Shown here: positions 17,294 to 48,297 of the stretch, in pieces
Layout: every line of letters begins with the position of its first letter
How positions within the stretch are numbered: the first letter of the stretch is position 1
NCBI GenBank assembly: GCA_963840225.1
Contig: CAWIYH010000004.1
Coordinates: forward strand, 30,383 to 94,382
Length of the DNA: 64,000 nt
Direction of reading: 5' to 3'
Source: an uncultured Acidobacteriota bacterium
GTDB taxonomy: Bacteria > Acidobacteriota > Vicinamibacteria > Vicinamibacterales > CAVVIG01
Position numbers and translations under genes: made by a program
Notes under the pieces: generated by a model
The model's database searches: none
What the model was told of the DNA's origin: nothing
Seen by the model: the letters and a program-made list of their open reading frames with translations, nothing else

Positions 17294-17459
17294 TTCGCCT
17301 CGCCCGCCTCCGCCATTCGTTCTGCCGGCCACCGGGCGCCAGCCTGTTTGCCAATTGTTGTCACATGGACCCGCCGACTGACAGAAAGCGTCAATTGGAA
17401 GCCCACGTTATTTCGATGCAAGCGCCAGTGTATCAATAGCTTAGCGGAAAGTCTCCTTC

Positions 17460-17475
17460 CGGCACGCCATTCGCA
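17460..17475 (+). promoter_or_regulatory. sigma-54 (-24/-12) type promoter candidate upstream of the pilin gene
   Basis: cGGCACGccaTTCGCA has correct GG-N10-GC spacing. It shares the motif GGCACG-N3-TTCGCA with the site at 35403-35418. It lies about 35 nt upstream of the pilin start. Confidence 0.45.
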
Positions 17476-17510: not shown

Positions 17511-18047
17511 GTGCGACTCCAACCTGCGCAGGCTCGCGGCTTCGCTCTGATCGACCTGGTGTTCGTCATAGGCGTGATCGGAGTGCTTTCGGCGATGGCG
17601 CTGCCGCGCCTGATCACGGCACGTCAGGCCGCCGGTTCGGCTTCCGCGATCGGCTCGCTCCGCACCCTGAACAGTTCGCAGCTCACGTTCGCGTTGACGT
17701 GCGGCTCCGGCTTTTACGCGCCGGATCTGGTGACGCTCGGTACGCCGCCGCCAGGCAGCAACGAGCCGTTCGTCACCAGCGGGCTTGGCGACGCCAACGT
17801 CGTGACACGATCCGGATACGTCATCCAACTGGAGGCGACCGCGTTCAGCGGAGCGCCTCCGAGCTGCAACGGACTCGGAGGCGGGATGACCGGCCAGGGG
17901 TTCAGGGCCGCCGCCGATCCGGTCGAGCCGAACACCACGCGCCATTTCGCCACGAACGCGAACACCCTGATCTTCGAGAACGATTCGACGTTGTATGCCG
18001 TCATGCCCGAGATCGGCGAGCCGCCGATCGGACACCTCCTCCGCTAA
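17511..18047 (+). CDS. type IV pilin-like protein (prepilin-type N-terminal cleavage/methylation domain)
   Basis: From GTG 17511 (or 17508) behind AAGGAG, a short basic leader MRLQPAQARG precedes FALIDLVFVIGVIGVLSAMALP (G/F cleavage site, acidic residue at +5 is D). The track ORF starts at 17484. Confidence 0.65.
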   Translation: MRLQPAQARGFALIDLVFVIGVIGVLSAMALPRLITARQAAGSASAIGSLRTLNSSQLTFALTCGSGFYAPDLVTLGTPPPGSNEPFVTSGLGDANVVTRSGYVIQLEATAFSGAPPSCNGLGGGMTGQGFRAAADPVEPNTTRHFATNANTLIFENDSTLYAVMPEIGEPPIGHLLR

Positions 18048-24116: not shown

Positions 24117-24144
24117 TTGACTCATTGCGCGCTGTTGATACACT
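24117..24144 (+). promoter_or_regulatory. sigma-70-like promoter candidate for the NtrC-type regulator
   Basis: TTGACT-N16-TACACT sits in an AT-richer 200-bp intergenic region. The -10 ends 9 nt before the ATG at 24154 and there is no SD (leaderless or very short leader). Confidence 0.3.
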
Positions 24145-24153
24145 TCCGAGTCT

Positions 24154-25590
24154 ATGAGTCTCAAACGCAGGAAGCGCGTGTTGGCCATCGACGACGAGCC
24201 GGCGATGACCGAGTGGCTCAAGATCCTGCTCGAGCACGCGGGCTACGATGTGCGGACGGCGCTCATCGGCACCCGCGGCGAAGAGCTCTTCAAGACTTGG
24301 CGGCCCGATGCCGTCGTCACCGACATGATGCTGCCCGACGTCGACGGCATCGAGCTGGTGCGGACCTTCAAGCAGCTCGATCCGGAAGCCGAGGTCATCG
24401 TCATCACCGGCCAGGGAAACATCCCGCGCTCGGTCGAGGCGGTCAAGGCCGGCGCCTTCGACTTCCTGGAGAAGCCGGTCGATGCCGAGCGGCTGCTCGA
24501 CAAGATGGAAAAGGCCATCAAGCAGAAGACGCTGATGGACGAGAACGAGCAGCTCAAGCAGAAGCTGCAGGACCGCTACAAGTTCCAGAACGTGATCGGC
24601 AAGAGCAAGAAGATGCAGGAGCTTTTCGAGCTCATTGAAAGCGTCGCCGCGAGCGAGGCCAATATCCTCATCCAGGGCGAGAACGGCACCGGGAAGGAGC
24701 TGATCGCCAACGCCATCCACTACAACAGCAAGCGGTCCAAGGGGCCGTTCATCAAGATCAACTGCGCGGCCATCCCGAAGGACCTGATCGAGTCGGAGCT
24801 GTTCGGATACAAGAAGGGCGCCTTCACCGGGGCGACGATGGACAAGGAGGGGCTCTTCGAGATGGCCGAAGGCGGCTCCCTCCTGCTGGACGAGATCGGA
24901 GAGATGCCGTCCTACCTGCAGACCAAGCTGCTGCGCGTCCTGCAGGAGCGCGAGTATCGTCCCATCGGCAGCGATCGCATCGTCCACGTCGACTTCCGGC
25001 TGGTTTGCGCGACGAACATCGACCTCGACACGGCGCTGCGGGAAGGGCGTCTGCGCGAGGACCTCTACTTCCGGATCAACACGATCACCCTCCGCGTGCC
25101 GCCGCTGCGCGAGCGGACCGAGGACATCCCCCTGCTGTGCGACTACTTCCTCGACAAGTTCCGCCAGCGCTACCAGAAGAACGTCAAGACGCTCGCCCCC
25201 TCGGTGTACCACCTGCTCATCCGGAACCGCTGGCCCGGCAACGTCCGCGAGCTCGAGAACGCGATCGAGCGGGCGGTGCTGGTCGCCAAGGGCAGCGAGA
25301 TCATGGTCGGCGACCTGCCGGAGTCGATTCGCGAGGAATCGAGCAGCTCGACCGATTTCGTGATTCCGCCGCATCGTACGCTTGCCGAAATCGAGAAGAT
25401 GGCGATCCTGCAGACGCTGCAGCGCACGAACTGGAACAAGCAGGAGGCGGCGCAGATCCTCGGGCTGTACCGGCCGACGCTGTACAGCAAGATGAAGAAG
25501 CACGACATCCGCGACATGGGAAAGGCGGCGCGCACCGCGTCGGCGACGCCGTCACCGGCCCCTGCGCCGCCGCCCCCGGCCGCGACGTGA
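24154..25590 (+). CDS. sigma-54-dependent response regulator (NtrC/Fis family enhancer-binding protein)
   Basis: The receiver domain has AIDDEP...DAVVTDMMLPDVDG. The AAA+ domain has GENGTGKELIA, the GAFTGA loop (KKGAFTGA) and RVPPLRER. The C-terminal Fis-type HTH is NWNKQEAAQILGLYRPTLYSKM. Confidence 0.9.
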   Translation: MSLKRRKRVLAIDDEPAMTEWLKILLEHAGYDVRTALIGTRGEELFKTWRPDAVVTDMMLPDVDGIELVRTFKQLDPEAEVIVITGQGNIPRSVEAVKAGAFDFLEKPVDAERLLDKMEKAIKQKTLMDENEQLKQKLQDRYKFQNVIGKSKKMQELFELIESVAASEANILIQGENGTGKELIANAIHYNSKRSKGPFIKINCAAIPKDLIESELFGYKKGAFTGATMDKEGLFEMAEGGSLLLDEIGEMPSYLQTKLLRVLQEREYRPIGSDRIVHVDFRLVCATNIDLDTALREGRLREDLYFRINTITLRVPPLRERTEDIPLLCDYFLDKFRQRYQKNVKTLAPSVYHLLIRNRWPGNVRELENAIERAVLVAKGSEIMVGDLPESIREESSSSTDFVIPPHRTLAEIEKMAILQTLQRTNWNKQEAAQILGLYRPTLYSKMKKHDIRDMGKAARTASATPSPAPAPPPPAAT

Positions 25591-28585: not shown

Positions 28586-28692
28586 TTCCGGACGCACCTC
28601 GACCGCCCCCTCCCTCCGAGCCGCAGGTGCGGGTTGACGCGGCCGTGGCACATAACTTGAAGTCTCAGCAGCTCAACGAACCAGGAGGGCGC

Positions 28693-34226: not shown

Positions 34227-34573
34227 CCAGGGTACCCGTGGATGTCTGGCTTCGCGGCAGCCACGTCGCGACGACCGAGTCGATCGAAGGCATCGCGCGC
34301 GAGCCGCGCGAGTGGAACGAGGCGGACGTCCGTCAGGTGCTCGAGGGCATGCTGCGGGCAATGGACCGACAGAAGCACCCGGGCGAGCCGGATCGCGCCG
34401 TCGCGCTCCGCGGCCTCAGCTGGATCGTGAACGCCTACGACGAAGGCGGCGTCGTGATTGCCATCGAGATCACGCTGGGGGCAGCGGTCGCGGGTCCCTT
34501 CGACATCGACCGGTCGGCGCTCGAAGCGATGGTGCGGCGCGTGCTCGAGCCGTACGCCGGCACGGTTCACTGA
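34223..34573 (+). CDS. hypothetical protein, translationally coupled to the crotonase gene
   Basis: 116 aa. The ATG overlaps the upstream stop (ATGA at 34223-34226). I recognise no motif. Confidence 0.5.
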   Translation: MTRVPVDVWLRGSHVATTESIEGIAREPREWNEADVRQVLEGMLRAMDRQKHPGEPDRAVALRGLSWIVNAYDEGGVVIAIEITLGAAVAGPFDIDRSALEAMVRRVLEPYAGTVH

Positions 34574-34758
34574 GCGTTCGGATCCTCGTCGCCGTGGCGG
34601 CCCGTCCGATCGCGGTCGCCCCGTGCGCGGTCGCGATTCGGATCCTGCTCCCGCGGCTGCACGTCGGTCGATCGCACCGAATCCTGCAGCTCCTCCCGCG
34701 CCTCGCGCGGACCGCGCTGATCCTTCCTGATGTCCTTCCGCAGCAGGCGCCCGGTCAT
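34567..34758 (-). CDS. small highly charged hydrophilic protein (doubtful)
   Basis: 63 aa, rich in R/D/E/K (MTGRLLRKDIRKDQRGPREAREELQDS...). It could be a stress-protein-like IDP or simply a chance ORF. Confidence 0.25.
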   Translation of the reverse strand: MTGRLLRKDIRKDQRGPREAREELQDSVRSTDVQPREQDPNRDRARGDRDRTGRHGDEDPNAQ

Positions 34759-34811
34759 CGTGCCCCCTTCTTCAGGCCGATCGGAAGCAGGAACTGCGCC
34801 ACGCCAGCCCG

Positions 34812-35336
34812 TCAGCTCGTCGCAATGACATAAAGGAGCAGGAACAGGCCCAGGCCGAGCAGCACGGCGCCAAACGCGAGGTCGGTGACCCCGAAGAGCC
34901 AGTCCTGCGCCGACGCCGTGAAGGCGCGGCGATCGATGTGCTCGCGCAGCGCCTGCTGCACGCGCACGAGCTGCCGTCGATCGACCGCATGCTCGCGGCC
35001 CTCGTCGTCGGTGACCCCGATCGACCGCGCGCCGAGCAGGCTCCAGTCGACGTCGGTCGGCATCGTCAGGTGCTCGCCCGAGTCGAGCACATGGGGCAGG
35101 GCGAACGGCAGGGTCTGATCGGCGCCCTTGCGGCCGTGCACCACGAGCGAGCTGAGCGCCACCGGCGTAGCGCTGACGTTGCCGATATCCCAGATGAGGT
35201 GGGCGCCGGGGACCGAGCGATCGAGACGAACCCGGATGTCGAGCACTCGACGACGCCGCGCGAACAGGCGCGCTGCGGGCCGCGCCGCCAGCGCGGCGAG
35301 GGCGGCTGGGGCAACGGCGGTGAGGATGTCCGCCAT
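34812..35336 (-). CDS. hypothetical protein with C-terminal transmembrane anchor
   Basis: The start at 35336 (MADILTAV...) has AAGGAG 9 nt upstream. The C-terminus is LAFGAVLLGLGLFLLLYVIATS. A sigma-54-type promoter lies about 65 nt upstream. Confidence 0.55.
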   Translation of the reverse strand: MADILTAVAPAALAALAARPAARLFARRRRVLDIRVRLDRSVPGAHLIWDIGNVSATPVALSSLVVHGRKGADQTLPFALPHVLDSGEHLTMPTDVDWSLLGARSIGVTDDEGREHAVDRRQLVRVQQALREHIDRRAFTASAQDWLFGVTDLAFGAVLLGLGLFLLLYVIATS

Positions 35337-35397
35337 GTCGTGACGCTCCTTGGAACTCGCGTTCCGCGGCTCGAGCGTATATGGCGAGTCCAGCATC

Positions 35398-35616
35398 TCA
35401 TCTGCGAACCTCGTGCCACCCTTGAGCCACGCGGTCCGAGCGCTTGCGATCAGCCCAGGCCAGAGCCTCCTCGCCGCTCTCGAAGGTGCGCGTGACGATC
35501 AGGCTGCCGTCGCGGAGGAGGTCGATTTCGATGCCGTAGGGCACCAGCCGGACGCGGCACGAGGTCTGGCGGCCGTCGCGGCCGAGTGTCCAGAGCGTCG
35601 TCGGCTGATCGTCCAT
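35398..35616 (-). CDS. small conserved-looking hypothetical protein
   Basis: 72 aa: MDDQPTTLWTLGRDGRQTSCRVRLVPYGIEIDLLRDGSLIVTRTFESGEEALAWADRKRSDRVAQGWHEV. The composition is balanced, unlike the shadow ORFs. Confidence 0.5.
   Translation of the reverse strand: MDDQPTTLWTLGRDGRQTSCRVRLVPYGIEIDLLRDGSLIVTRTFESGEEALAWADRKRSDRVAQGWHEVRR
35403..35418 (-). promoter_or_regulatory. sigma-54 (-24/-12) type promoter candidate (reverse strand)
   Basis: The reverse complement reads TGGCACGaggTTCGCA, with one mismatch to TGGCACG-N4-TTGCW. It is embedded in the last codons of the 72-aa gene. The predicted TSS falls just past the ATG at 35396, which supports the start at 35336. Confidence 0.5.
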
Positions 35617-35717
35617 GACGCCAGCCTAGCATCGGCGCGTCAGGGGACTCCACCGTCGGTCGAGAGCCGACAGGGGGGAGCCGTGGGGGCGGCCGGGCCG
35701 CCGTCGGCGCCGACCGC

Positions 35718-35723
35718 TATAAT
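35718..35723 (+). promoter_or_regulatory. perfect TATAAT -10 hexamer upstream of the lipoprotein gene
   Basis: ccgcTATAATggcgcg, followed by GAGGAGG and the ATG at 35750. Confidence 0.35.
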
Positions 35724-35749
35724 GGCGCGTCGGTTCGCGAGGAGGTGTC

Positions 35750-36217
35750 ATGAAGACGTTCGCGCTCGTCGGGCTTTCGCTCGTTATCGCCGCCTGCTCC
35801 AGCCCGCCGCCGCCGGCACCTGCTGCGAGCCAGGCGCCGGCAGCAGCCGGCGTGTCGGTGGATACCGGACAGGGGACGATCGCGCTCAGCGCGTTCAGCC
35901 TCGGCCTGGCCCACGAGCTGCCGGTGCGCAACGTGCCGCACTCGGTGCCCAAGGTGAAGGCCGTCAAGGCGTTCATCGTCAACGTCCCGAACGCGAGCGG
36001 CGCGGACGCGGCGGTGTACTGGGTGAACGATCCCGAGCTGATCTTCTCCGAGAGCCAGCAGCCGCTGCCGTCGCAGGTCTCGGATCACGGCCAGAGCGGC
36101 TACTCGATTGCGGCTCCGTCGTTGAGCGATCGATCGAGCGGGTACGCGATGCTCGTCCTGAAGAACCCGGGCGGTGGGCCGTCGCGCTACTACGCGGTGG
36201 CGCTCGGCGCGTCGTAG
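35750..36217 (+). CDS. hypothetical lipoprotein
   Basis: MKTFALVGLSLVIAAC has a lipobox (VIAAC). It is followed by a Pro/Ala-rich linker. Confidence 0.65.
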   Translation: MKTFALVGLSLVIAACSSPPPPAPAASQAPAAAGVSVDTGQGTIALSAFSLGLAHELPVRNVPHSVPKVKAVKAFIVNVPNASGADAAVYWVNDPELIFSESQQPLPSQVSDHGQSGYSIAAPSLSDRSSGYAMLVLKNPGGGPSRYYAVALGAS

Positions 36218-36262: not shown

Positions 36263-36982
36263 CTAGACGGCGGCCCGCGCGGCTCGGCGCCGAAGCGGGA
36301 TCTTCCCGCGCCGCCTCGCCCACAACGGCAGCCCTCCCAGCAGACAGATCAACATCGTCGACGGTTCCGGCACCTCCACCTCTTCGATGTTCGAGACCGA
36401 CCCGGAGATGTTGGCGAAGAGATCCGTGCGATCGATGTCCAGCTCGGACACGCTCCAGGTGCCCGGGCCGCCGCCGAAGGCACTGGTCGGAAGGTTGTTG
36501 CTCGACAGGGGATTGGTGCCGAGCGACTCGATGAGGACCAGGCTGAGCGTCGTCACCGCATCGAAGTTGCCGTCGATCGTGAACGTGTCGTGCCCGTCCG
36601 ACGGGTTCATCGTCACGAGGAAGTCGGGCGTGTTCTTCACGCCGATCCGAATCGGGAAACTGTTGTCGCCCACGAAGGAGTCGCCACCCGACGACTGAAA
36701 GCTGAAGGTGATGGCCGTCTCTCCGGCGCTCGTGTCGTAGAAGGTGAAGTCGCCCACGTCCGTGCCGGTGAGCAGGGCCGGATCGTAGGTGACCAACAGA
36801 CTGTAGGTGTCTCCGGCCGTCGTCGCAAAGACGTCGCTCGGGTCTGTGACGAAGAACGACGATCCGGAGAATTCGAGGGTCAGGGGTGCCGCCTGGGCCG
36901 GCACTGCGATCAGACCCAGGCTCAAGCTGAGGAGGAGCGCGGGTCCCGCGAGCCGCGGCCATCGCGTCGACGCGTGCATCAT
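36263..36982 (-). CDS. PEP-CTERM sorting-domain secreted protein
   Basis: Signal peptide (MMHASTRWPRLAGPALLLSLSLGLIAVPAQA). The C-terminus VPEPSTMLICLLGGLPLWARRRGK has the PEP motif, a TM helix and a basic cluster. GGAGG lies upstream of the ATG at 36982. Confidence 0.7.
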   Translation of the reverse strand: MMHASTRWPRLAGPALLLSLSLGLIAVPAQAAPLTLEFSGSSFFVTDPSDVFATTAGDTYSLLVTYDPALLTGTDVGDFTFYDTSAGETAITFSFQSSGGDSFVGDNSFPIRIGVKNTPDFLVTMNPSDGHDTFTIDGNFDAVTTLSLVLIESLGTNPLSSNNLPTSAFGGGPGTWSVSELDIDRTDLFANISGSVSNIEEVEVPEPSTMLICLLGGLPLWARRRGKIPLRRRAARAAV

Positions 36983-37195
36983 GGAGGCCTCCAATCTGAG
37001 GACGAATCTTCCTGGCACACCGGCAAGACTCGAGCCGCGTATCGATCCACAACAGGTCCACGAAACTCGCGCGAGTCTCGATCGCCAATCGGGAGTATTC
37101 GTGGCTCGGCCCGACTTTGTTCGGCGCAGACGATCCGCGTCTCGTCGATCGATGAACGTGCGACGCGCTCGAGAGGGACCGATGCTCTGGCTCAG

Positions 37196-38668
37196 CTAGA
37201 AGGTCTGGACGTGGCGGACGGCGCGCGCGACCACGAAGACGCGCAGGTTGTTGCTCTTCGGATCGGCCGGGAACAGGATGAAGCCGTCGGCATCGGGGCG
37301 GTAGCTCAAGGTCGTGCCGACGAGCACTTCGTCGTCGAGGAAGGTCACCACGACGCGGCGGGCGGCCTCGTTGCGCTCGAAGGTCTTCGCCTCGACGTGC
37401 GACGGCTCGCCGTCGAAGTCGCGAACGAAGAAGACCGCCTTGAGCTGTCCGATCGGCACCGAGATGCGGGCGATGTCGGGCGCGTGAAGGGTCGGCACGA
37501 GATGGAGGTACGGCTTGGTGGCGAGAAAGTCGCTCGTGTATCCCTTCAACAGCCGGCCGTCGGCGTACCGCACGACGATCTTGCAGGCGCCCTGGGGCGC
37601 GGTCCGTTCCGGGGCCTCGACGCCCAGAGCGGCGCTCGACGGCGGGTCGAGATCGAGCACGAGCGCGACCAGGTGGGCCGTCGCCTTCAGGAGGTGGAAG
37701 TGTCCCTCGGCGGGTCTCATGTCTCGGCCGAAGTCGACGACGAGCGTGGCCGGGAGCCGATGGGGCGACGCCGGCAGGTCGAAGTGGACGGACCGTGGAG
37801 TCCGGGCGGCCGGGTCGGTCCGGTCGGCGATGCGGATGCTCGCGCCGAGCCAGCGCGACAGGCGCCGACCGATCCGGTCGCAGAGAATCGCCGACGACTC
37901 GCCGCGCTCCACGCCGAGCGTCAGGTCCCGCAGGAGCGACGCCAGCTCGTTGGCGAACGCCGCGTCGGACCGCAGGGCGGCCGGTAGCTCGAGCAGCATG
38001 GCCGTCGCCGCCAGCACCGCGTCGCCGACCTCAGTGACGCCGCCGCTGGCGGCCGCGTCAGGCCGCCCGCGGCTTTCCAGGGCGCGCGTGAACCGCTTGA
38101 TGGCGAACGCCAGCCGCGCGTGCTCGTCGGCGGCCGGCGGACACGATTGCGCATCGTGGGTCGTGGCGAGCTCGGGGAAGTCGACCGCGCTCTTGAACGC
38201 GAGCGCCCCGCGGTAGGTCGCCACCGGGGCGAGCGACGCGATCTGGCAGCGGAGCACCTGGGACGCGACCGCCAGTTCGGCGTCGAGCCCCTCGATCTGT
38301 ACAACGATGGTGGAGCCCGGATGAAGCGTGACGCGGCTCTCGACCTGCGCGCCGCCGGCCGACAGATCGACGAGCGACACCGGAGGCCCGTACTTGAGCC
38401 TCACGGCCTTCAGCCACGGCAAATCGCCCGGCCCCACCCGGACGTACGCGCGTCGGTCGGAGCCGGACGACAGGTCGGGGCCTTCGTCAGCGGGTGCGAG
38501 TGCCGCCGTGCCGCCAGAAGCGAATTTCAATGCCGAACCCACATGGACACACCACGAGCCGGTTTCTGTACACAAGATGCGCACCGCTTCCGCCCTGATC
38601 GCTAAGAGATTGTTGGGGAAGCGCTTACGGTCGGCGGCCGCGCGGATGTCGCCGGAGGCGTGTGCCAC
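37196..38668 (-). CDS. PilZ-domain protein with a large uncharacterised C-terminal region
   Basis: 490 aa. PilZ-like RRAYVRV...VSLVDLSAGGAQVES. The C-terminal ~130 aa (KIVVRYADGRLLKGYTSDF...LKAVFFVRDFDG...FILFPADPKSNNLRVFV) looks like a distinct conserved module. Confidence 0.65.
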   Translation of the reverse strand: MAHASGDIRAAADRKRFPNNLLAIRAEAVRILCTETGSWCVHVGSALKFASGGTAALAPADEGPDLSSGSDRRAYVRVGPGDLPWLKAVRLKYGPPVSLVDLSAGGAQVESRVTLHPGSTIVVQIEGLDAELAVASQVLRCQIASLAPVATYRGALAFKSAVDFPELATTHDAQSCPPAADEHARLAFAIKRFTRALESRGRPDAAASGGVTEVGDAVLAATAMLLELPAALRSDAAFANELASLLRDLTLGVERGESSAILCDRIGRRLSRWLGASIRIADRTDPAARTPRSVHFDLPASPHRLPATLVVDFGRDMRPAEGHFHLLKATAHLVALVLDLDPPSSAALGVEAPERTAPQGACKIVVRYADGRLLKGYTSDFLATKPYLHLVPTLHAPDIARISVPIGQLKAVFFVRDFDGEPSHVEAKTFERNEAARRVVVTFLDDEVLVGTTLSYRPDADGFILFPADPKSNNLRVFVVARAVRHVQTF

Positions 38669-39221: not shown

Positions 39222-39307
39222 GCCGGGGTGGCGGAACTGGCAGACGCACAGGACTTAAAATCCTGGGTCCCGCAAGGGGCGTGTGGGTTCGATGCCCGCC
39301 CCCGGCA
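39222..39307 (+). tRNA. tRNA-Leu (anticodon TAA)
   Basis: Hand-folded. Acceptor GCCGGGG/CCCCGGC plus discriminator A. Anticodon arm CAGGA-CTTAAAA-TCCTG. Long variable arm (GTCCC-GCAA-GGGGC). T arm GTGGG-TTCGATG-CCCGC. Length 86 nt. Confidence 0.9.
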
Positions 39308-39441
39308 CTTTCTCAGGTGATTTGAGGCGTTCTCAGGGCGAGTGCGGACGGCCTGCGATAGGCCGCCATTGACTCTGGGTGAGCCAGCCTGCGGCCTGCC
39401 TCGAGAACCGTGTACTTCGACGCCAAGACCAAAGGGCTGGC
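39285..39441 (+). repeat. direct repeat copy 1 (157 bp: tRNA-Leu 3' end plus 134 bp downstream)
   Basis: Identical to 46574-46730 except for one position (39354 T versus 46643 C). Confidence 0.95.
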
Positions 39442-39708
39442 GCTCCGCGTGTCGCCGCGGGGCTCCAGGACCTGGGCGTTCGTCTATCGGAGCGGTGGAC
39501 GGCCGCCACGGCGGCTCGAGGGTTCAGCGAGGACGTCATCGGTCGCGCTCTGAACCACGCGCGCTATACGGTCACGGCCCGGCACTCCATCAAGCACGGG
39601 TACCAAGTCGAGGTCCGGCACGCGCTCATGACCTGGGACGGGGACTTGGCGGATATCGTCGCCGGCCGCGAAGTGAGCCCGCGCGCGGTCCTGCCGTTCC
39701 GGCGATAG
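39365..39708 (+). pseudogene. P4-type tyrosine integrase, internally deleted (Arm/DUF4102 N-terminus joined out of frame to the extreme C-terminus)
   Basis: The frame from GTG 39410 gives VYFDAKTKGLALRVSPRGSRTWAFVYRSGGRP (DUF4102-like). A second frame gives GFSEDVIGRALNHARYTVTARHSIKHGYQVEVRHALMTWDGDLADIV (integrase C-terminal helix pattern). The ~300-aa catalytic core is missing. Confidence 0.65.
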
Positions 39709-40121
39709 ATGTCGTTTCCCGGCGCGCGGCGTGGCGCGATGCGTAACGCGCCCGGCGCTTCGGATGTGGTCGAGGCAAGTGATGCCGTCCCTTACGCCAG
39801 CAGCGCTCTTTGCTGCACGCGAGGCGATCATGCTCTCGGCACGAGGGCTGGCTCACTCGGAGCCAACCAGGAGGCGACGATCAGCTCGTGACCTGAGGCA
39901 CGTGGGTTAGAGTCCCAGCACGTGGTGGAAATTCGATAGCGGCCCCTCGGTAGACAAACGAAGCGGCCATCGCGCATCTTTCCGTGAGTTCTCTCTGGCG
40001 GGAGACGAAAGCACGGAGGTGTTGAGACGATGGCCCCGCGCGCCGCCAATTTCGATCGTAATCGCGCCGTCTTCTCGGCAGAGCCGGGCATTGTCGGCAT
40101 CCGCCGTCGGGGTCAGGAGCG

Positions 40122-40195
40122 AAGGGGGAGCGACCCCTTGCTACGCGGCGGCGCGGCGTGCCCAACGCCGGCCCCGGCCGGGGTCGCTCCCCCTT
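40122..40195. repeat. 16-bp perfect inverted repeat pair, each arm itself a small hairpin
   Basis: AAGGGGGAGCGACCCC (40122-40137) and GGGGTCGCTCCCCCTT (40180-40195) are separated by 42 nt. They lie just upstream of the IS91-type transposase remnant. Confidence 0.8.
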
Positions 40196-40349
40196 CGTGC
40201 GTCGGGCGACGGTCCAGACCGTCGTTGCAGGAATCGCACTCTCCAGCTCGCAGTCCTCTTGCAGATTCTGCAATCCCCACGCGACGCCGAGCGATTCTGA
40301 GCCGGGCCCGACGCGCGGCGGGCTGGCACCGTCCCTGCGCCCGTCGCGG

Positions 40350-40819
40350 CGTGCCCCCAGGGCCCTCGGTCTATCAGCGTCGGTCGCCCGGCGACACCGT
40401 CCTGTACCGCATCGTCCGTGACCCCTTCGAGACGTTCCGCGCCCAGGCCGCGGGGTTGCGCGACCGCGAGGGCCTGCCTCAGTTCGTCGAGCAGGCATTC
40501 CGCAATTTCCTCCGTTGCGGCTGGCTGGCCGGCGGCTTCGCGCGCTTTCGTTGCGCGGGCTGCGGATTTGACCGCCTCGTGGCTTTTTCGTGCAAGGGGC
40601 GCGAACTGTGCCCGAGCTGTGGGGGGGCGCCGGATGGCTGAGCGGGCCGCACACCTTGTCGACCGGGTCCTGCCGGACGTGCCGATCCGGCAGTGGGTAC
40701 TGAGTGTGCCGCACCGCCTCCGGTACCGACTCGCGTGGGACCACGATCTCTGCCGGGCCGTCGCCGGCGTGCTGGTCCGGAGCGTCCTTCGCGTGCTGGG
40801 CGATCGGCCACGCGACGAC
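40350..40819 (+). pseudogene. IS91-family (Y2/HUH rolling-circle) transposase, 5' part: zinc-binding domain, frameshifted, interrupted by IS21
   Basis: VYQRRSPGDTVLYRIVRDPFETFRAQA...GLPQFVEQAFRNFLRCGWLAGGFARFRCAGCGFDRLVAFSCKGRELCPSCGG, then a frame change to RRMAERAAHLVDRVLPDVPIRQWVLSVPHRLRYRLAWDHDLCRAV. Confidence 0.75.
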
Positions 40820-40924
40820 TGGGCGCGCCGCTCAGAAACTAGGCCATTCGCCGCTCAGAAAGTAGACCACCTGAGGGTGTGACGGCGAGCTTGCCGGATC
40901 GAGGGATCCGGGGTTCGCTGGAGG

Positions 40925-42406
40925 ATGCTCAGGATGGATCAAGTGCATGTTGTCCGGCACAAAGTGCTGGTGGAGGGGCGGACGCAGCGGGCGGTCGCCC
41001 GTGAGTTGGGGATCGCGCGCGTCACCGTCCGTAAGTACTTGCATCAGGCGGTCCCGAGTCGAAAGCCGGCGACGCCGCGACCGCGGCCGGTCTGGGATGC
41101 GGTGGCCGATCGGGTGCAGGCGCTGCTGGCCGATTCCGTGCGATGGACGGCCGGCAAACAGCGGCTGACCGCCACACGGCTGCACGAGATGCTGCTGGCG
41201 GAAGGGAAACGCGTGGGCGTGACGGTCGTCAAAGACGCGGTCGCCGAGTGGAAGCGACAGCGGCGAGAGGTGTTCGTCCCGCTGACGTATCGGCCGGGTG
41301 ATCTCGCCGAGGTCGATTTCTTCGAGGTCCTGGTCGACATCGACGGCACGCGGCGCAAAGCGTGGCTCTTCCTGATGCGGCTGATGTACTCCGGTCGCGA
41401 CTTCGCCTGGATTTACGAGCGCCAAGATCAAATCAGCTTTCTCGACGGGCACGTCCGCGCCTTTGCGCATTTCGATAGCGTGCCCGCGCGCGTCGCGTAC
41501 GATAATCTGCGCGCCGCGGTCGTGCGGATTCTGGTTGGCGGCGCGCGCACGCTGACGCCGCGGTTCGAGGCGCTGACCTCGCATTACCTGCTCGAAGCGT
41601 GCTTCTGTCGGCCCGGCGAAGGCCACGACAAAGGCGGCGTCGAGTCGCGGGGCAAAGCCATCCGGCAGCAAGCGCTCGTCCCCATTCCGAGCGGGCCGAC
41701 GCTCGCGGCGATTAATGCGACGCTGCTGGCGCAGATGGATGCGCGGCTCGACACGACCCGGGATGCGGCCGGTCGCACGATCGGCGACCGCTTCACCGAG
41801 GAGCAGCGCCAGTGTCGGCGGGCGCCCACGCCGTTCGCGCCGGAGGCCACGACGTTCGCCACCGTGTCGCCGCGCGCGCTGGTCCGGCTCGAAGGCGCGG
41901 TCTACTCGGTGTGGACGCGCTGGGTCGGCCTCGATCTCGTCGTGCGCCTGGGCGCCACGATGGTGACCCTGGTGGGACGCGACGGCGTCTGCGTGACGCA
42001 TCCGCGCAAACGCTTCGGCGAGCGCTCGATTGATTATCGACACTACCTGGCGGAGCTCGCGCGCAAGCCGCAGGCGGTGCGCCAGGTGCTGCCGGATCTC
42101 CTGTGGGATCTCGGGGATCCATTTCCGGCGGTCTGGGCGCAGCTGCACGGCGCGCACGGGCCGCGGGAGGCGGCGCGGCACTTCGCCAAAGTCCTCGGCC
42201 AGCTGGAGACACACGGCGCCGCCGTGGTCGTGCCCGCGCTGCGCGTCGCGCTCGCGACTGGGGCGCCGCTGCTGCTCGCGCTCACACCGGCCCGATCGCC
42301 CGTCCGTGTCGCGCTTGACGCGCTGCCGGCGCCCCTCCGTGAGATCGACGTCGCGAGCGGCTGCGCCGCCGACTATGACGCTTGGCTCCTGGGCGGCGTC
42401 GCATGA
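40925..42406 (+). CDS. istA: IS21-family transposase IstA
   Basis: 493 aa. N-terminal HTH (GRTQRAVARELGIARVTVRKYL). DDE region (GDLAEVDFFEVLVDIDG...MYSGRDFAWIYERQDQISFLDGHVRAFAHFDSVPARVAYDNL...CRPGEGHDKGGVES). Confidence 0.9.
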   Translation: MLRMDQVHVVRHKVLVEGRTQRAVARELGIARVTVRKYLHQAVPSRKPATPRPRPVWDAVADRVQALLADSVRWTAGKQRLTATRLHEMLLAEGKRVGVTVVKDAVAEWKRQRREVFVPLTYRPGDLAEVDFFEVLVDIDGTRRKAWLFLMRLMYSGRDFAWIYERQDQISFLDGHVRAFAHFDSVPARVAYDNLRAAVVRILVGGARTLTPRFEALTSHYLLEACFCRPGEGHDKGGVESRGKAIRQQALVPIPSGPTLAAINATLLAQMDARLDTTRDAAGRTIGDRFTEEQRQCRRAPTPFAPEATTFATVSPRALVRLEGAVYSVWTRWVGLDLVVRLGATMVTLVGRDGVCVTHPRKRFGERSIDYRHYLAELARKPQAVRQVLPDLLWDLGDPFPAVWAQLHGAHGPREAARHFAKVLGQLETHGAAVVVPALRVALATGAPLLLALTPARSPVRVALDALPAPLREIDVASGCAADYDAWLLGGVA

Positions 42407-43170
42407 GCACCGCCACCCTCGCCCGCGATCTCGTCGTCGCGCAGACGCGGGCGTTGAAGTTGCCGGGCGTGGCGCGCACCTTCGAAGCCCTCGCTCGCCA
42501 GGCGCGCGACGCGCACTGGCCACACGAGGATTACCTGCACGAGGTGCTCACGGCGGAGCAGGCCTCGCGGCACGAGTCCGTGATCCGTCAGCGGCTTCGC
42601 GAGGCGCGCTTCCCCGAGGTGAAGACCCTCGACACCTTTGACTTCACGACGGCCGACGGCGTCAGCGCGACGCAGATTCATACGCTGGCACGTGGCGAGT
42701 GGGTCACGGCGCCGGAGAATCTGATCTTGGCCGGCCCGATCGGGACCGGCAAGACGCACTTGGCGATCGCGCTCGGCGTGGAAGCCACGAAGCAGAAACG
42801 ACGGGTGCTCTTCACCCGGGCCGCCGACCTCGTGCGTCAGCTGATTGAAGCCCGCGATGCCCGCGAGCTGACCCGGCTGCAGCAGCGGCTCCTGCGCGTC
42901 GACGTCCTGATCGTCGACGAGCTCGGGTTTGTGCCGTTCGACCGCATCGGCGGCGAGCTGCTCTTCAATCTGATCACCGATCGGTACGAGCGGCGGGCGA
43001 CGGTCGTGACCACCAATCTGGCGTTTGCTGAATGGGTGACGGTGTTCGCCGGCGACGAAAAACTGACGACCGCGCTTCTCGATCGCTTGGCGCATCACGC
43101 CACCGTGCTGACGACGAAAGGCAAAAGCTATCGCATGCGAAAGCGCCGCGGCCGCGAGGAACCCTCGTGA
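42403..43170 (+). CDS. istB: IS21-family helper ATPase IstB
   Basis: ATGA overlap with istA. Walker A is LAGPIGTGKTHLA and Walker B is LLIVDELGF; it also has TTNLAFAEW. Confidence 0.9.
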   Translation: MSTATLARDLVVAQTRALKLPGVARTFEALARQARDAHWPHEDYLHEVLTAEQASRHESVIRQRLREARFPEVKTLDTFDFTTADGVSATQIHTLARGEWVTAPENLILAGPIGTGKTHLAIALGVEATKQKRRVLFTRAADLVRQLIEARDARELTRLQQRLLRVDVLIVDELGFVPFDRIGGELLFNLITDRYERRATVVTTNLAFAEWVTVFAGDEKLTTALLDRLAHHATVLTTKGKSYRMRKRRGREEPS

Positions 43171-47253: not shown

Positions 47254-48297
47254 TCACGAACCAGACGTGCGCGGTCTGTTGTGGTCCGTCACGCCGACGG
47301 CTTCGAATACCGGACGCAGCGCCTGGCGATACGACGCGACGAGGTCGTGATAGCCGAGCCTGACTACTGAAAACGGAAGCGGTGCAAAGTGCGCCGTCCA
47401 TGCCCCGGAAAACCGGATGAATCCCGCGGTCGCTGTGAGCGGCGTCTGCCGATAGTCGACGATTGTTCTCAGTGCGCTACAGCGCGGTATGTCCGGCAGC
47501 GACACATTGACCGTCCGACGCACGTCCTCCGACAATCGGCGGTAAGCGTTCAACGAAAGATTCATCACGAGTAGCACCAGCCGTTCCGGCTGCAGCGTTT
47601 CGAACGCCTGCCGGCATTCCCACTCGAGGCCGGATCCCGATCCGACCCTGACCACAACGAGCGCCGCGGTCCGCATTTGGTCCTGAACGACCGCTCGCCA
47701 CGCCTGGTCGGACGCATACATGCGGGCCGCTCCGGGGACCGGGAGCGGCTCGCCCGGCTGGCCGATTGCGACCAGCGTGCCAATGGGGCGCAGGGCCTCT
47801 GCCAGATCTTCTTCGTCGGTCGACAGCCCGGTTTGCAGTACTTTGCCCGCGCGTGACGTATCCGAACCGAACGCCCGGAGGTACAGCACCGTCGGGCCCG
47901 ATCGCTGATCCGCGCGCGTCGCCCGCACCGAGCGCCTTGCCTGGAGCCGGCGTCCTTTGAAATGAAGGAGGATGCCCACGATCATCAGGAACGCACCGAG
48001 CAAAGACGCTGGGTTCTCTTCGACATCGCCAAGGACGCCGTACAGAATCGCGCCCACCACGATCGCCGCAATTCCCGCGACCTTCAAGCCGGTGCCAGAC
48101 ACCTGCGTACGCCTCCAGCCGTCGACCCCTCGCAGGCGCCTGCGCGGCTCCCACGCGAGGTCTGCTACACCGGGCCAGCGCAGTCCTGCAGGCTGCGCAC
48201 CGAACGAACCGCTGCGGTCTGAAACCCAGCCACAGATCCGATTCGGTTGGAACATTCCACGGCCGGGCTGACTGACTTCGTTACTGGCAAGTGTCAC
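47254..48297 (-). CDS. uncharacterised two-TM membrane protein with a C-terminal alpha/beta (TIR-like?) domain
   Basis: 347 aa from GTG 48297 (or the ATG at 48255). TM helices are LKVAGIAAIVVGAILYGVLG and LLGAFLMIVGILLHF. These are followed by TVLYLRAFGSDTS...LVAIGQPGEPLPVPGAARMYASDQAWRAVVQDQMRTAALVVVRVGSGSGLEWECRQAFETLQPERLVLLV. Confidence 0.6.
   Translation of the reverse strand: MTLASNEVSQPGRGMFQPNRICGWVSDRSGSFGAQPAGLRWPGVADLAWEPRRRLRGVDGWRRTQVSGTGLKVAGIAAIVVGAILYGVLGDVEENPASLLGAFLMIVGILLHFKGRRLQARRSVRATRADQRSGPTVLYLRAFGSDTSRAGKVLQTGLSTDEEDLAEALRPIGTLVAIGQPGEPLPVPGAARMYASDQAWRAVVQDQMRTAALVVVRVGSGSGLEWECRQAFETLQPERLVLLVMNLSLNAYRRLSEDVRRTVNVSLPDIPRCSALRTIVDYRQTPLTATAGFIRFSGAWTAHFAPLPFSVVRLGYHDLVASYRQALRPVFEAVGVTDHNRPRTSGS

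What the first reader, a model, noticed from the sequence alone, without database searches (positions are those of the whole stretch)
35398..35418. Near-consensus sigma-54 promoter embedded in the 3' end of a gene, driving a hypothetical membrane protein
The reverse strand reads TGGCACGAGGTTCGCA, with one mismatch to TGGCACG-N4-TTGCW and correct GG-N10-GC spacing. It overlaps the last codons and stop of the 72-aa gene. The predicted start site falls 2-3 nt past the upstream ATG (35396). This independently argues for the SD-preceded start at 35336. The same GGCACG-N3-TTCGCA string occurs upstream of the pilin gene at 17460. Two such matches, both correctly oriented upstream of starts, are unlikely by chance in 64 kb.
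Basis: partly seen in the sequence, partly recalled or inferred. Interest (0 to 1): 0.55.

Follow-up and report, generated by a model that had tools for sequence, protein, structure and literature searches.

The report
Conserved sigma-54 promoter inside gene end
The flagged 16 bases are very probably a real sigma-54 promoter, because the same promoter sits in front of the same small membrane-protein gene in about 55 related soil Acidobacteria; it is a sound but ordinary kind of regulatory signal that here happens to overlap the last codons of the gene upstream.

Summary
The minus strand at 35418..35403 reads TGGCACGAGGTTCGCA, with GG-N10-GC spacing and one mismatch to the sigma-54 consensus. 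It overlaps the last codons and stop of a 72-aa gene.

Counts within the window do not make it significant. The degenerate motif occurs 4 times against 3.9 expected, and a third exact GGCACG-N4-TCGCA lies mid-gene.

Comparison with relatives does. In 57 non-redundant Vicinamibacterales-type loci, the homologous 174-aa gene is preceded by GGCA[CT]-N6-TGCA. GG, A-22, GC and A-11 are invariant or nearly so, the flanks are uninformative, and the upstream gene varies.

A GAFTGA-type sigma-54 activator is encoded at 24139..25590. The pilin site at 17460 is also conserved, together with an upstream TGTCA/TGACA enhancer-like repeat.

The start codon at 35336 is confirmed. In the window the promoter most likely drives two genes: the 174-aa two-TM beta-sandwich protein and a conserved 63-aa charged protein (34567..34758).

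Caveats:
- The window copy alone has C instead of T at -14. E. coli glnAp2 has the same base.
- No activator site was found.
- rpoN itself was not seen.

Verdict: supported, as a new member of a known kind. An unexplained conserved GGAAC...CGTC box lies in the leader.

The parts
35403..35418 (-). Sigma-54 type promoter core, TGGCACGAGGTTCGCA. GG is at -25/-24 (35417-35416) and GC at -13/-12 (35405-35404). It overlaps codons W67-H-E-V-R-R and lies just before the stop (TGA 35400..35398) of the 72-aa gene.
   Evidence: Sequence. One mismatch to the consensus. Homologous position conserved in 57 non-redundant loci.
35390..35393 (-). Predicted transcription start, about 35392, which is 12 nt downstream of C(-12). 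Inferred, not measured.
   Evidence: Geometry of sigma-54 promoters applied. Places the upstream ATG (35396) outside the transcript.
35337..35392 (-). Predicted 56-nt 5' leader. It contains a conserved GGAAC box (35365..35361), the Shine-Dalgarno AAGGAG (35351..35346) and a conserved CGTC (35345..35342).
   Evidence: Position-wise conservation across 58 loci. The box is specific to this site. There is no consistent RNA fold and no Rfam match.
34812..35336 (-). Gene for a 174-aa protein of a small family of unknown function found here in Vicinamibacterales-type Acidobacteriota. It has an N-terminal TM helix, a 7-strand beta-sandwich, and a long C-terminal helix ending in a TM segment.
   Evidence: Homologues and their start. 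Family size of 48 representatives. AF2 model with pLDDT 89. Only generic fold matches. No Pfam or NCBIfam match.
34786..34801 (-). Second sigma-54-like motif, TGGCGCAGTTCCTGCT, in the spacer between the 174-aa and 63-aa genes. It is conserved in the closest relative, L003, as TGGCGCAGTTTCTGCT. Its status is uncertain.
   Evidence: E. coli-derived PWM rank 4 in the window. Comparison with L003.
34567..34758 (-). Conserved 63-aa highly charged protein gene (..KKDQ.G.RE.REE...NPNRDRARGDWDRTG..). It is probably co-transcribed with the 174-aa gene.
   Evidence: tblastn hits directly downstream of the 174-aa gene in about 29 distinct loci. In the loci inspected the gap after that gene's stop is often only 11-70 nt. 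No Pfam or NCBIfam match.
35398..35616 (-). Upstream 72-aa gene. Its invariant G66-W67 codons supply the TGG of the -24 element. Its tail (HEVRR-stop) is encoded by the promoter.
   Evidence: Family alignment: GW is invariant and the tail after it is variable. Only the closest relatives have the GWH[ED]V tail. L089 has the promoter without this gene.
17460..17475 (+). Second conserved sigma-54 type promoter, CGGCACGCCATTCGCA, upstream of the type IV pilin-like gene (GTG 17511..18047).
   Evidence: the 178-aa product matches the annotated length. Conserved in L090, L092, L094 and L097.
17359..17393 (+). Candidate enhancer (bEBP binding site) of the pilin promoter: TGTCA-N15-TGACA-N6-GTCA, about 90 nt upstream of the -24 element.
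   Evidence: Conserved in sequence and position in 5 pilin loci. The role is inferred.
24139..25590 (+). Sigma-54-dependent activator (bEBP): receiver domain, AAA+ Sigma54_activat domain with GAFTGA, and HTH_8. It shows that sigma-54 is used by this organism. It is not shown to act on either promoter.
   Evidence: Six-frame motif search. Pfam. NCBIfam NtrC/AtoC-like. Its neighbours are Mla transporter genes.

Best explanation
The 16-mer at 35418..35403 (minus strand) is a genuine sigma-54 (RpoN) -24/-12 promoter.

Proposed mechanism:
1. RNA polymerase with sigma-54 binds GG(-25/-24) and GC(-13/-12) as a closed complex.
2. A AAA+ enhancer-binding activator, not yet identified, must remodel the complex before transcription starts.
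3. Transcription starts near 35392.
4. The transcript has a 56-nt leader. It encodes the 174-aa two-TM beta-sandwich membrane protein from ATG 35336. In this genome it probably also encodes the conserved 63-aa charged protein at 34758..34567.

The promoter belongs to the downstream cassette, not to the 72-aa gene. In a small clade the 72-aa gene has come to abut the promoter, so that its invariant Trp codon is the TGG of the -24 element and its last five codons and stop are promoter sequence.

Shown: the sequence, its conservation, the start codon, the gene pair, and the presence of a bEBP.

Inferred: sigma-54 binding, the transcription start, co-transcription, and dependence on an activator.
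For: (1) Exact geometry and 15 of 16 matches to the consensus.

(2) Phylogenetic footprint. In 57 non-redundant loci whose proteins are 44-72% identical, the positions score: GG 57/57, A-22 57/57, T-14 56/57, GC 57/57, A-11 56/57. Flanking positions carry less than 0.4 bit. The motif sits at a fixed place, 58-93 nt before the ATG.

(3) Specificity. The motif is at the expected site in 55 of 59 loci and occurs 6 times elsewhere in 384 kb.

(4) Independence from the upstream gene. The motif is kept behind at least 8 different upstream contexts. This includes L089, a 72%-identical orthologue without the 72-aa gene, which reads TGGCACAAAGTCTGCAGATGAG.

(5) A natural control. In L095/L096 the cassette is absent and the site has drifted to TGGCACGACGTCCGCC.

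(6) A GAFTGA-containing bEBP is encoded in the window.

(7) The family consensus CGGCACGAACTCTGCA nearly equals E. coli astC, TGGCACGAACCCTGCA. The window's TTCGC -12 equals E. coli glnA, TGGCACAGATTTCGCT (PMC2831329 Table 1).

(8) Promoters inside an upstream gene that drive the next gene are documented for sigma-54 (PMC4591121).
Against: - The window copy is the only one of 57 with C instead of T at -14. A PWM built from the other family members gives it only 7.0 bits, rank 12 in the window, so it may be weaker than its relatives.
- No conserved activator-binding site was found within 300 nt upstream. No bEBP gene lies within 3 kb of the cassette in any locus.
- rpoN itself is not in the window.
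- There is no transcript evidence.
- Window-only statistics are not significant.
Confidence: 0.82

Rival explanations
1. Relic or weakened promoter. The site descends from the family's sigma-54 promoter, but in this genome it has lost activity through T-14 to C. The 174-aa gene would then be expressed mainly by read-through from the 72-aa gene's own promoter, as a 3-gene operon.
For: C at -14 is unique among 57 sites. The score with the family PWM is low. No terminator-like structure lies between the 72-aa and 174-aa genes. The gap between the genes is only 61 nt. In L095 the same position has decayed further.
Against: GG, A-22, GC and A-11 are all intact. The same TTCGC -12 is used by the native E. 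coli glnA sigma-54 promoter. The downstream genes are intact and retain every invariant residue of the family. L003, which has the same gene order, keeps a canonical CTGCA.
Confidence: 0.1
2. Chance resemblance. A G+C-rich coding sequence that must encode Gly-Trp-His happens to look like a -24/-12 element.
For: The TGG is fixed by an invariant Trp codon. The degenerate motif is not enriched in the window. A near-identical string lies mid-gene at 47767.
Against: The same motif is found at the same distance from the orthologous start in 55 other loci, most of which have no 72-aa gene upstream. The HEVRR tail is specific to the clade in which gene and promoter overlap.
Confidence: 0.03
3. The conserved bipartite motif is bound by a factor other than sigma-54, for example a dimeric regulator, and only mimics a -24/-12 element.
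For: No activator site or rpoN gene was seen directly. A second conserved box of unknown role exists downstream.
Against: The conserved positions and the invariant 10-nt spacing match sigma-54 base for base: GGCA[CT]-N6-TGCA. The two halves are not a palindrome or a direct repeat. The same motif precedes pilin genes, a classic sigma-54 target (PMC6058289).
Confidence: 0.04

Closest known systems
Enterobacterial sigma-54 promoters, especially E. coli glnAp2 (TGGCACAGATTTCGCT) and astC (TGGCACGAACCCTGCA)
   Same: GG-N10-GC geometry. The window's -24 TGGCACG and -12 TTCGC match glnA. The family consensus CGGCACGAACTCTGCA differs from astC at two positions.
   Different: The host is an acidobacterium with 69% G+C. 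The base before GG is usually C, not T. The regulated genes are orphan membrane and charged proteins. No activator or enhancer has been identified.
[quoted passage not shown]
   Same: The promoter lies inside the coding sequence of the upstream gene, in sense orientation, and serves the next gene. It is conserved across species.
   Different: Here the overlap is only the last 6 codons and the leader is short, at 56 nt. The E. coli cases have leaders of 360-760 nt. Here the coding tail appears to have been recruited from the promoter rather than the reverse.
PilR/sigma-54-dependent type IV pilin promoters (Pseudomonas, Myxococcus, Geobacter)
   Same: The window's second site (17460) precedes a prepilin-type gene. 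It has an upstream repeat at enhancer distance. PilR sites are described as TGT-N11-AGA plus GTCT elements (PMC6058289).
   Different: No pilS/pilR pair lies next to the pilin gene in the window. The repeat here is TGTCA-N15-TGACA-N6-GTCA. This comparison applies to the pilin site, not to the flagged site, which has no such repeat.
ECF (group 4) sigma promoters, -35 GGAAC / -10 cGTT or GTC (C. glutamicum SigE/SigH, E. coli SigE; PMC10012870)
   Same: The conserved leader box GGAAC-N15-17-CGTC has the two ECF hallmark elements. It ends 4-5 nt before the ATG, as in the leaderless ECF promoters listed in that paper.
   Different: The spacer is 1-2 nt shorter than the quoted N17-18 in most loci. 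The spacer contains a conserved Shine-Dalgarno. No other examples were found in 444 kb of related DNA. No ECF sigma gene was seen in the window.

Membership tests
Sigma-54 (RpoN)-dependent promoter | GG and GC dinucleotides separated by exactly 10 bases (-24/-12 elements) | tested here: met
   35417-35416 GG and 35405-35404 GC. The same spacing is seen in 57 of 57 homologous sites.
Sigma-54 (RpoN)-dependent promoter | Match to the extended consensus TGGCACG-N4-TTGCW | tested here: met
   One mismatch, C for T at -14. The same variant occurs in E. coli glnA.
Sigma-54 (RpoN)-dependent promoter | Correct orientation and a plausible distance upstream of a gene start | tested here: met
   Predicted +1 at about 35392, giving a 56-nt leader to ATG 35336, which has an AAGGAG. 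The start is confirmed by homologues.
Sigma-54 (RpoN)-dependent promoter | Conservation of the -24/-12 bases, but not their flanks, upstream of orthologues | tested here: met
   Information profile. Motif at the site in 55 of 59 loci, against 6 elsewhere in 384 kb.
Sigma-54 (RpoN)-dependent promoter | rpoN present in the genome | not testable with these tools
   Only 64 kb is available and the source contig is not retrievable. No RpoN box was found in the window. Indirect support comes from a GAFTGA bEBP at 24139..25590.
Sigma-54 (RpoN)-dependent promoter | Cognate bEBP with an enhancer (UAS) near the promoter | tested here: inconclusive
   No k-mer or TGTCA/TGACA-type repeat is shared across 8 upstream contexts within 300 nt. 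No bEBP lies within 3 kb in any locus. A conserved box lies downstream instead.
Sigma-54 (RpoN)-dependent promoter | rpoN- and bEBP-dependent transcription start 11-13 nt downstream of the GC | not testable with these tools
   Needs 5'-end mapping or genetics.
PilR-type sigma-54 pilin promoter (for the 17460 site) | -24/-12 element upstream of a prepilin gene, plus a conserved enhancer about 100 nt upstream | tested here: met
   The product has a weak N-terminal match to PilA/GspG models.
PilR-type sigma-54 pilin promoter (for the 17460 site) | Adjacent or identifiable PilS-PilR two-component pair | tested here: not met
   The pilin's neighbours are ferritin, a 116-aa ORF, ferredoxin and HMGL. 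The only bEBP in the window is 6.6 kb away, beside Mla genes, and matches NtrC/AtoC-type models only below their cut-offs.
ECF sigma promoter (for the leader box 35365..35342) | -35 GGAAC and -10 CGT[CT] with a spacer of about 16-18 nt and a start 5-8 nt downstream | tested here: inconclusive
   Both elements are conserved, but the spacer is 15-17 nt. The pattern is not enriched in the window and has no other intergenic examples.

The most novel reading that the evidence does not exclude
The invariant GGAAC...AGGAG-CGTC box in the leader may be a second control device. It keeps a fixed distance to the ATG, and its spacing to the sigma-54 element comes in three classes that differ by about two and one helical turns.

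Two readings are possible:
- It is a proximal ECF-type promoter that produces a leaderless mRNA, so the cassette is switched by two alternative sigma factors.
- It is a downstream enhancer or operator that must sit on one face of the helix relative to the sigma-54 closed complex.

Either reading would make this lineage-specific envelope cassette a compact dual-input switch in an almost unstudied phylum.
Probability: 0.2. Interest if true: 0.5.

Novelty: new member of a known kind. Interest (0 to 1): 0.33.

Why it matters
- It provides a sequence-supported sigma-54 regulon member, in fact two with the pilin gene, for Vicinamibacterales-type Acidobacteriota. My literature searches found no paper on sigma-54 promoters in Acidobacteria.
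- It fixes the start codon of the 174-aa gene at 35336.
- It links two orphan proteins, a two-TM beta-sandwich protein and a 63-aa charged protein, into one regulated unit. It thereby predicts that they are made only on a signal relayed by an enhancer-binding protein.
- It gives a clear example of a coding tail and stop codon written over a promoter.
- None of this changes what is known about how sigma-54 works.

Tried and rejected
- Window-only enrichment tests. The consensus with up to 2 mismatches and the degenerate motif are at chance level. The 'two matches' argument was made after the fact, and a third exact match is intragenic.

- PWM scans of the window, using a family PWM and a PWM built from 18 E. 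coli promoters. They cannot separate true sites from false ones at 69% G+C.

- Search for an activator site. There are no shared k-mers or TGTCA/TGACA repeats upstream across contexts. No bEBP gene lies near the cassette in 88 loci.

- A structured RNA leader. RNAalifold gives no consensus per length class. Leader MFE z-scores average only -0.4 to -1.0. The hairpin next to the SD is present in some clades, including the window (GGAAC-GCGA-GTTCC), but absent in the 'long' class. There is no Rfam hit. A riboswitch or attenuator is therefore not supported.

- ECF reading of the leader box. The pattern is not enriched in the window, and no other intergenic instances were found. It is kept only as a hypothesis.

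- Function of the 174-aa protein. There is no Pfam or NCBIfam match. The confident AF2 model matches only generic Ig-like, ApaG and archaeal-pilin folds, with TM-scores up to 0.5.

- Function of the 63-aa and 72-aa proteins. No family matched.

- Sigma-70 promoter and terminator scan of 34400..35800. Nothing was found.

- Retrieval of the source genome, to look for rpoN. The proteins are not indexed with accessions.

Full report
**1. What is in the sequence**

Reading the minus strand, 35418..35403 is TGGCACGAGGTTCGCA. GG is at 35417-35416 and GC at 35405-35404, so they are separated by exactly ten bases. The only departure from TGGCACG-N4-TTGCW is C for T at -14.

The 16-mer encodes W-H-E-V-R-R of the 72-aa ORF 35398..35616(-). 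It ends two bases before that ORF's TGA at 35400..35398. With C(-12) at 35404, the expected start is about 35392. That is just past the ATG at 35396 and 56 nt before the ATG at 35336, which is preceded by AAGGAG.

**2. Is it more than chance within the window? Not demonstrably**

The pattern GGCACGNNNTTCGCA occurs twice against 0.03 expected, but it was defined from those two hits. Other counts:
- GGCACG-N4-TCGCA has a third exact copy at 47767(-), in the middle of a 347-aa ORF.
- The consensus with up to 1 mismatch gives 2 hits against 0.34 expected; 5 of 100 shuffles reach 2.
- The consensus with up to 2 mismatches gives 6 against 8.8 expected.
- GGCA[CT]N6[TC]GCA gives 4 against 3.9 expected.

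PWM scans rank the site 2nd with an E. coli-derived matrix, but only 12th with a matrix built from its own relatives.

**3. Comparative evidence settles it**

The downstream ORF belongs to a small family: 34 clusters in the first search and 48 representatives at 50% identity among 1.84 billion proteins. The named genomes that carry it are Vicinamibacterales or Acidobacteriota MAGs. All members begin M-A-Q-I-L-T and are about 173 aa long. The database copy of the window's protein is 174 aa, which confirms the start at 35336.

I fetched 88 loci encoding relatives plus one more. After removing duplicates, 57 had enough upstream DNA. In all of them a GG-N10-GC element lies 58-93 nt before the ATG.

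The position-wise counts are GG 57/57, C-23 55/57, A-22 57/57, C/T-21 57/57, T-14 56/57, G-13 and C-12 57/57, and A-11 56/57. Positions outside -27..-11 carry little information. This is the sigma-54 -24/-12 signature and nothing else.

The degenerate motif is at the expected place in 55 of 59 loci and occurs only 6 times elsewhere in 384 kb on both strands.

The upstream neighbour differs between loci: MOSC-like genes, a gene ending ...ITIKHK, divergent genes, and others. These form 8 unrelated contexts. Conservation therefore follows the downstream gene.

The family consensus CGGCACGAACTCTGCA is almost the E. coli astC promoter, TGGCACGAACCCTGCA (PMC2831329 Table 1).

**4. How the promoter relates to the 72-aa gene**

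The 72-aa family (82 clusters) has an invariant Gly-Trp three to thirty residues from its C terminus, followed by a variable tail. Only the window and its closest relatives place this gene in front of the 174-aa gene. Those relatives are L003 and the contigs of P0003 and P0037.

In exactly those relatives the tail reads GWHEV.., that is, TGG-CAC-GAG-GT., and the stop codon lies in the GATGAG that follows the -12 element. L089, a 72%-identical orthologue of the 174-aa gene, lacks the 72-aa gene. It still has TGGCACAAAGTCTGCAGATGAG, in intergenic DNA next to the same divergent lipoprotein gene.

So the promoter is the older feature at this position. The 72-aa gene's last codons and stop are written over it, with the invariant Trp codon doubling as the TGG of the -24 element.

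Conversely, L095/L096 keep the 72-aa gene but lack the cassette. There the site reads TGGCACGACGTCCGCC, so the TGCA is lost. This is what would be expected if the -12 element is maintained only while there is a gene to drive. It rests on a single lineage.

**5. Is sigma-54 available?**

rpoN is not in the window; no RpoN box was found. The source genome could not be retrieved.

However, 24139..25590(+) encodes a response-regulator bEBP with a Sigma54_activat domain (E = 1e-70), the GAFTGA loop and HTH_8. Such proteins act only on sigma-54 holoenzyme; this is established knowledge of the family. The gene sits beside MlaE and MlaD genes. Nothing ties it to either promoter.

**6. The pilin site**

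CGGCACGCCATTCGCA at 17460..17475(+) lies 35 nt before the GTG at 17511 of a prepilin-type protein (leader MRLQPAQARG|FALIDL). The 178-aa product equals the database annotation.

Four independent homologous loci (L090, L092, L094, L097) carry GGCA[CT]-N6-TG[CT]A 40-70 nt before the start. All five loci, including the window, share TGTCA-N~15-TGACA-N~6-GTCA about 90 nt upstream of the -24 element. That is the usual enhancer distance.

Sigma-54/PilR control of pilin genes is classic (PMC6058289). No such repeat precedes the flagged promoter, so a different activator is expected there.

**7. What the promoter drives**

The 174-aa protein is predicted with confidence (pLDDT 89). It has an N-terminal TM helix, a seven-strand beta-sandwich, and a long C-terminal helix that ends in a TM segment. 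PDB matches are generic: Ig-like folds, ApaG and an archaeal pilin, with TM-scores up to 0.5. It has no Pfam or NCBIfam match.

Directly downstream, 34758..34567(-) encodes a 63-aa, highly charged protein. Homologues (..KKDQ.G.RE.REE..NPNRDRARGDWDRTG..) follow the 174-aa gene in about 29 distinct loci. In the loci inspected the gap is often only 11-70 nt and the small gene has its own GGAGG. It matches no known family.

The conserved unit is thus a two-gene cassette in roughly half the loci, followed by a convergent gene.

In the window the 53-nt spacer between the two genes contains TGGCGCAGTTCCTGCT (34801..34786). This is conserved in L003 as TGGCGCAGTTTCTGCT, within otherwise diverged DNA, and it resembles E. 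coli ygjG, TGGCGCAATCCCTGCA. It may be a second, internal sigma-54 promoter. With two sequences only, I leave it open.

**8. The leader**

Besides the SD, two short blocks are conserved at the sequence level in 58 loci. These are GGAAC (window 35365..35361) and CGTC immediately after GGAG (35345..35342; C 54, G 54, T 51, C 57 of 58). CGTC always lies 4-5 nt before the ATG.

Strict GGAAC-N15-17-CGTC is found at this site in 30 loci and 6 times elsewhere in 444 kb.

No consistent RNA structure explains this:
- There is no alifold consensus.
- The z-scores are weak.
- The hairpin next to the SD is present in some clades, including the window, but absent from the 22 'long' leaders.
- There is no Rfam match.

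The distance from the sigma-54 GG to the SD falls into three classes: 46-47, 68 and 78-79 nt. These differ by about 21.5 and 10.7 nt, roughly two and one helical turns.

The two blocks resemble an ECF promoter. The C. glutamicum SigE/SigH consensus is GGAAC-N17-18-cGTT, and that set includes leaderless examples. E. coli SigE recognises -35 GGAAC and -10 GTC (PMC10012870). Against this reading, the spacer here is 1-2 nt short in most loci, the pattern is not enriched in the window, and no ECF sigma gene was seen in the window.

I record it as unexplained. The ECF/leaderless and operator/enhancer readings are hypotheses.

**9. Caveats on the window copy**

It is the only one of 57 sites with C at -14. 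This lowers its score against its own family and allows the possibility that it is weakened.

Against that: the same TTCGC is the -12 element of E. coli glnA, all other key bases are intact, and the downstream genes are intact.

Read-through from the 72-aa gene cannot be excluded, because no terminator-like structure lies between the genes.

**10. Comparison with known systems, and verdict**

Mechanistically this is a standard sigma-54 promoter. Overlap with the 3' end of an upstream gene has precedents in E. coli, where promoters inside nagB, rlmD and yqeC drive nagE, relA and yqeB (PMC4591121).

What is new is local:
- a conserved sigma-54-controlled orphan cassette in Vicinamibacterales-type Acidobacteriota;
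- a coding tail borrowed from a promoter;
- an unexplained conserved box in the leader.

I rate it a new member of a known kind, interest about 0.33.

Noticed in passing
window 34567..34758 (-): An unannotated-looking 63-aa, highly charged ORF is a conserved gene (..NPNRDRARGDWDRTG..). It follows the 174-aa gene in about 29 distinct related loci and matches no Pfam or NCBIfam family.
   Followed up: partly
window 34786..34801 (-): A second sigma-54-like motif, TGGCGCAGTTCCTGCT, lies between the 174-aa and 63-aa genes. It is conserved in L003, where it precedes an extra 165-aa secreted-protein gene.
   Followed up: partly
window 35342..35365 (-): GGAAC-N15-CGTC box in the leader, ending 5 nt before the ATG. 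It is conserved at the sequence level across the family, is not an RNA hairpin, and looks ECF-promoter-like. Its spacing to the sigma-54 element comes in steps of about 10.5 nt.
   Followed up: partly
window 28646..28661 (+): TGGCACATAACTTGAA lies in an AT-rich intergenic stretch after the MlaD gene, 33 nt before AGGAGG-GTG (28694) of a small YtxH-like membrane protein gene. It is a candidate further sigma-54 promoter, with GA instead of GC at -12, as in E. coli hydN.
   Followed up: partly
window 47767..47782 (-): TGGCACGCTGGTCGCA (one mismatch to the consensus) lies mid-ORF in a 347-aa gene with no family match, within a poorly coding region near an IS21 element. It could be chance or an intragenic sigma-54 site.
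   Followed up: partly
window 17359..17393 (+): TGTCA-N15-TGACA-N6-GTCA repeat about 90 nt upstream of the pilin promoter, conserved in five loci. It is a likely enhancer for an unidentified bEBP.
   Followed up: partly
window 39222..43170: A tRNA gene (39222..39307) is followed by an IS21-type element: istA-like integrase/Mu-transposase at 40883..42406 and IstB ATPase at 42379..43170. The region 43-48 kb has weak coding signal, which suggests an insertion hotspot or island.
   Followed up: no
window 36263..38668 (-): A PEP-CTERM-tailed protein (36263..37018) and a PilZ + DUF6982 protein (37196..38668) lie just upstream of the locus. They hint at an exopolysaccharide or c-di-GMP context.
   Followed up: no
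L095 / L096 (72-aa gene at 649..867 in L095): Close relatives keep the 72-aa gene but lack the 174-aa/63-aa cassette. The promoter remnant has drifted to TGGCACGACGTCCGCC, while still encoding the GWHDVRP tail.
   Followed up: yes
L098 1..141: The DNA upstream of a pilin homologue in this ENA metagenome contig is pUC/lacZ cloning-vector sequence (tgtgagcggataacaatttcacacaggaaacagctatgaccatg...). The contig is chimeric or contaminated.
   Followed up: no
related loci, e.g. L020, L036, L038 upstream; L001, L006, L011, L048, L050 downstream of the cassette: Short tandem repeats of about 7 nt (CCCCAAT-, GAACCGA-, GAAGTCT- and GGTCAGG-like) often flank the cassette in intergenic DNA of these acidobacterial contigs.
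   Followed up: no
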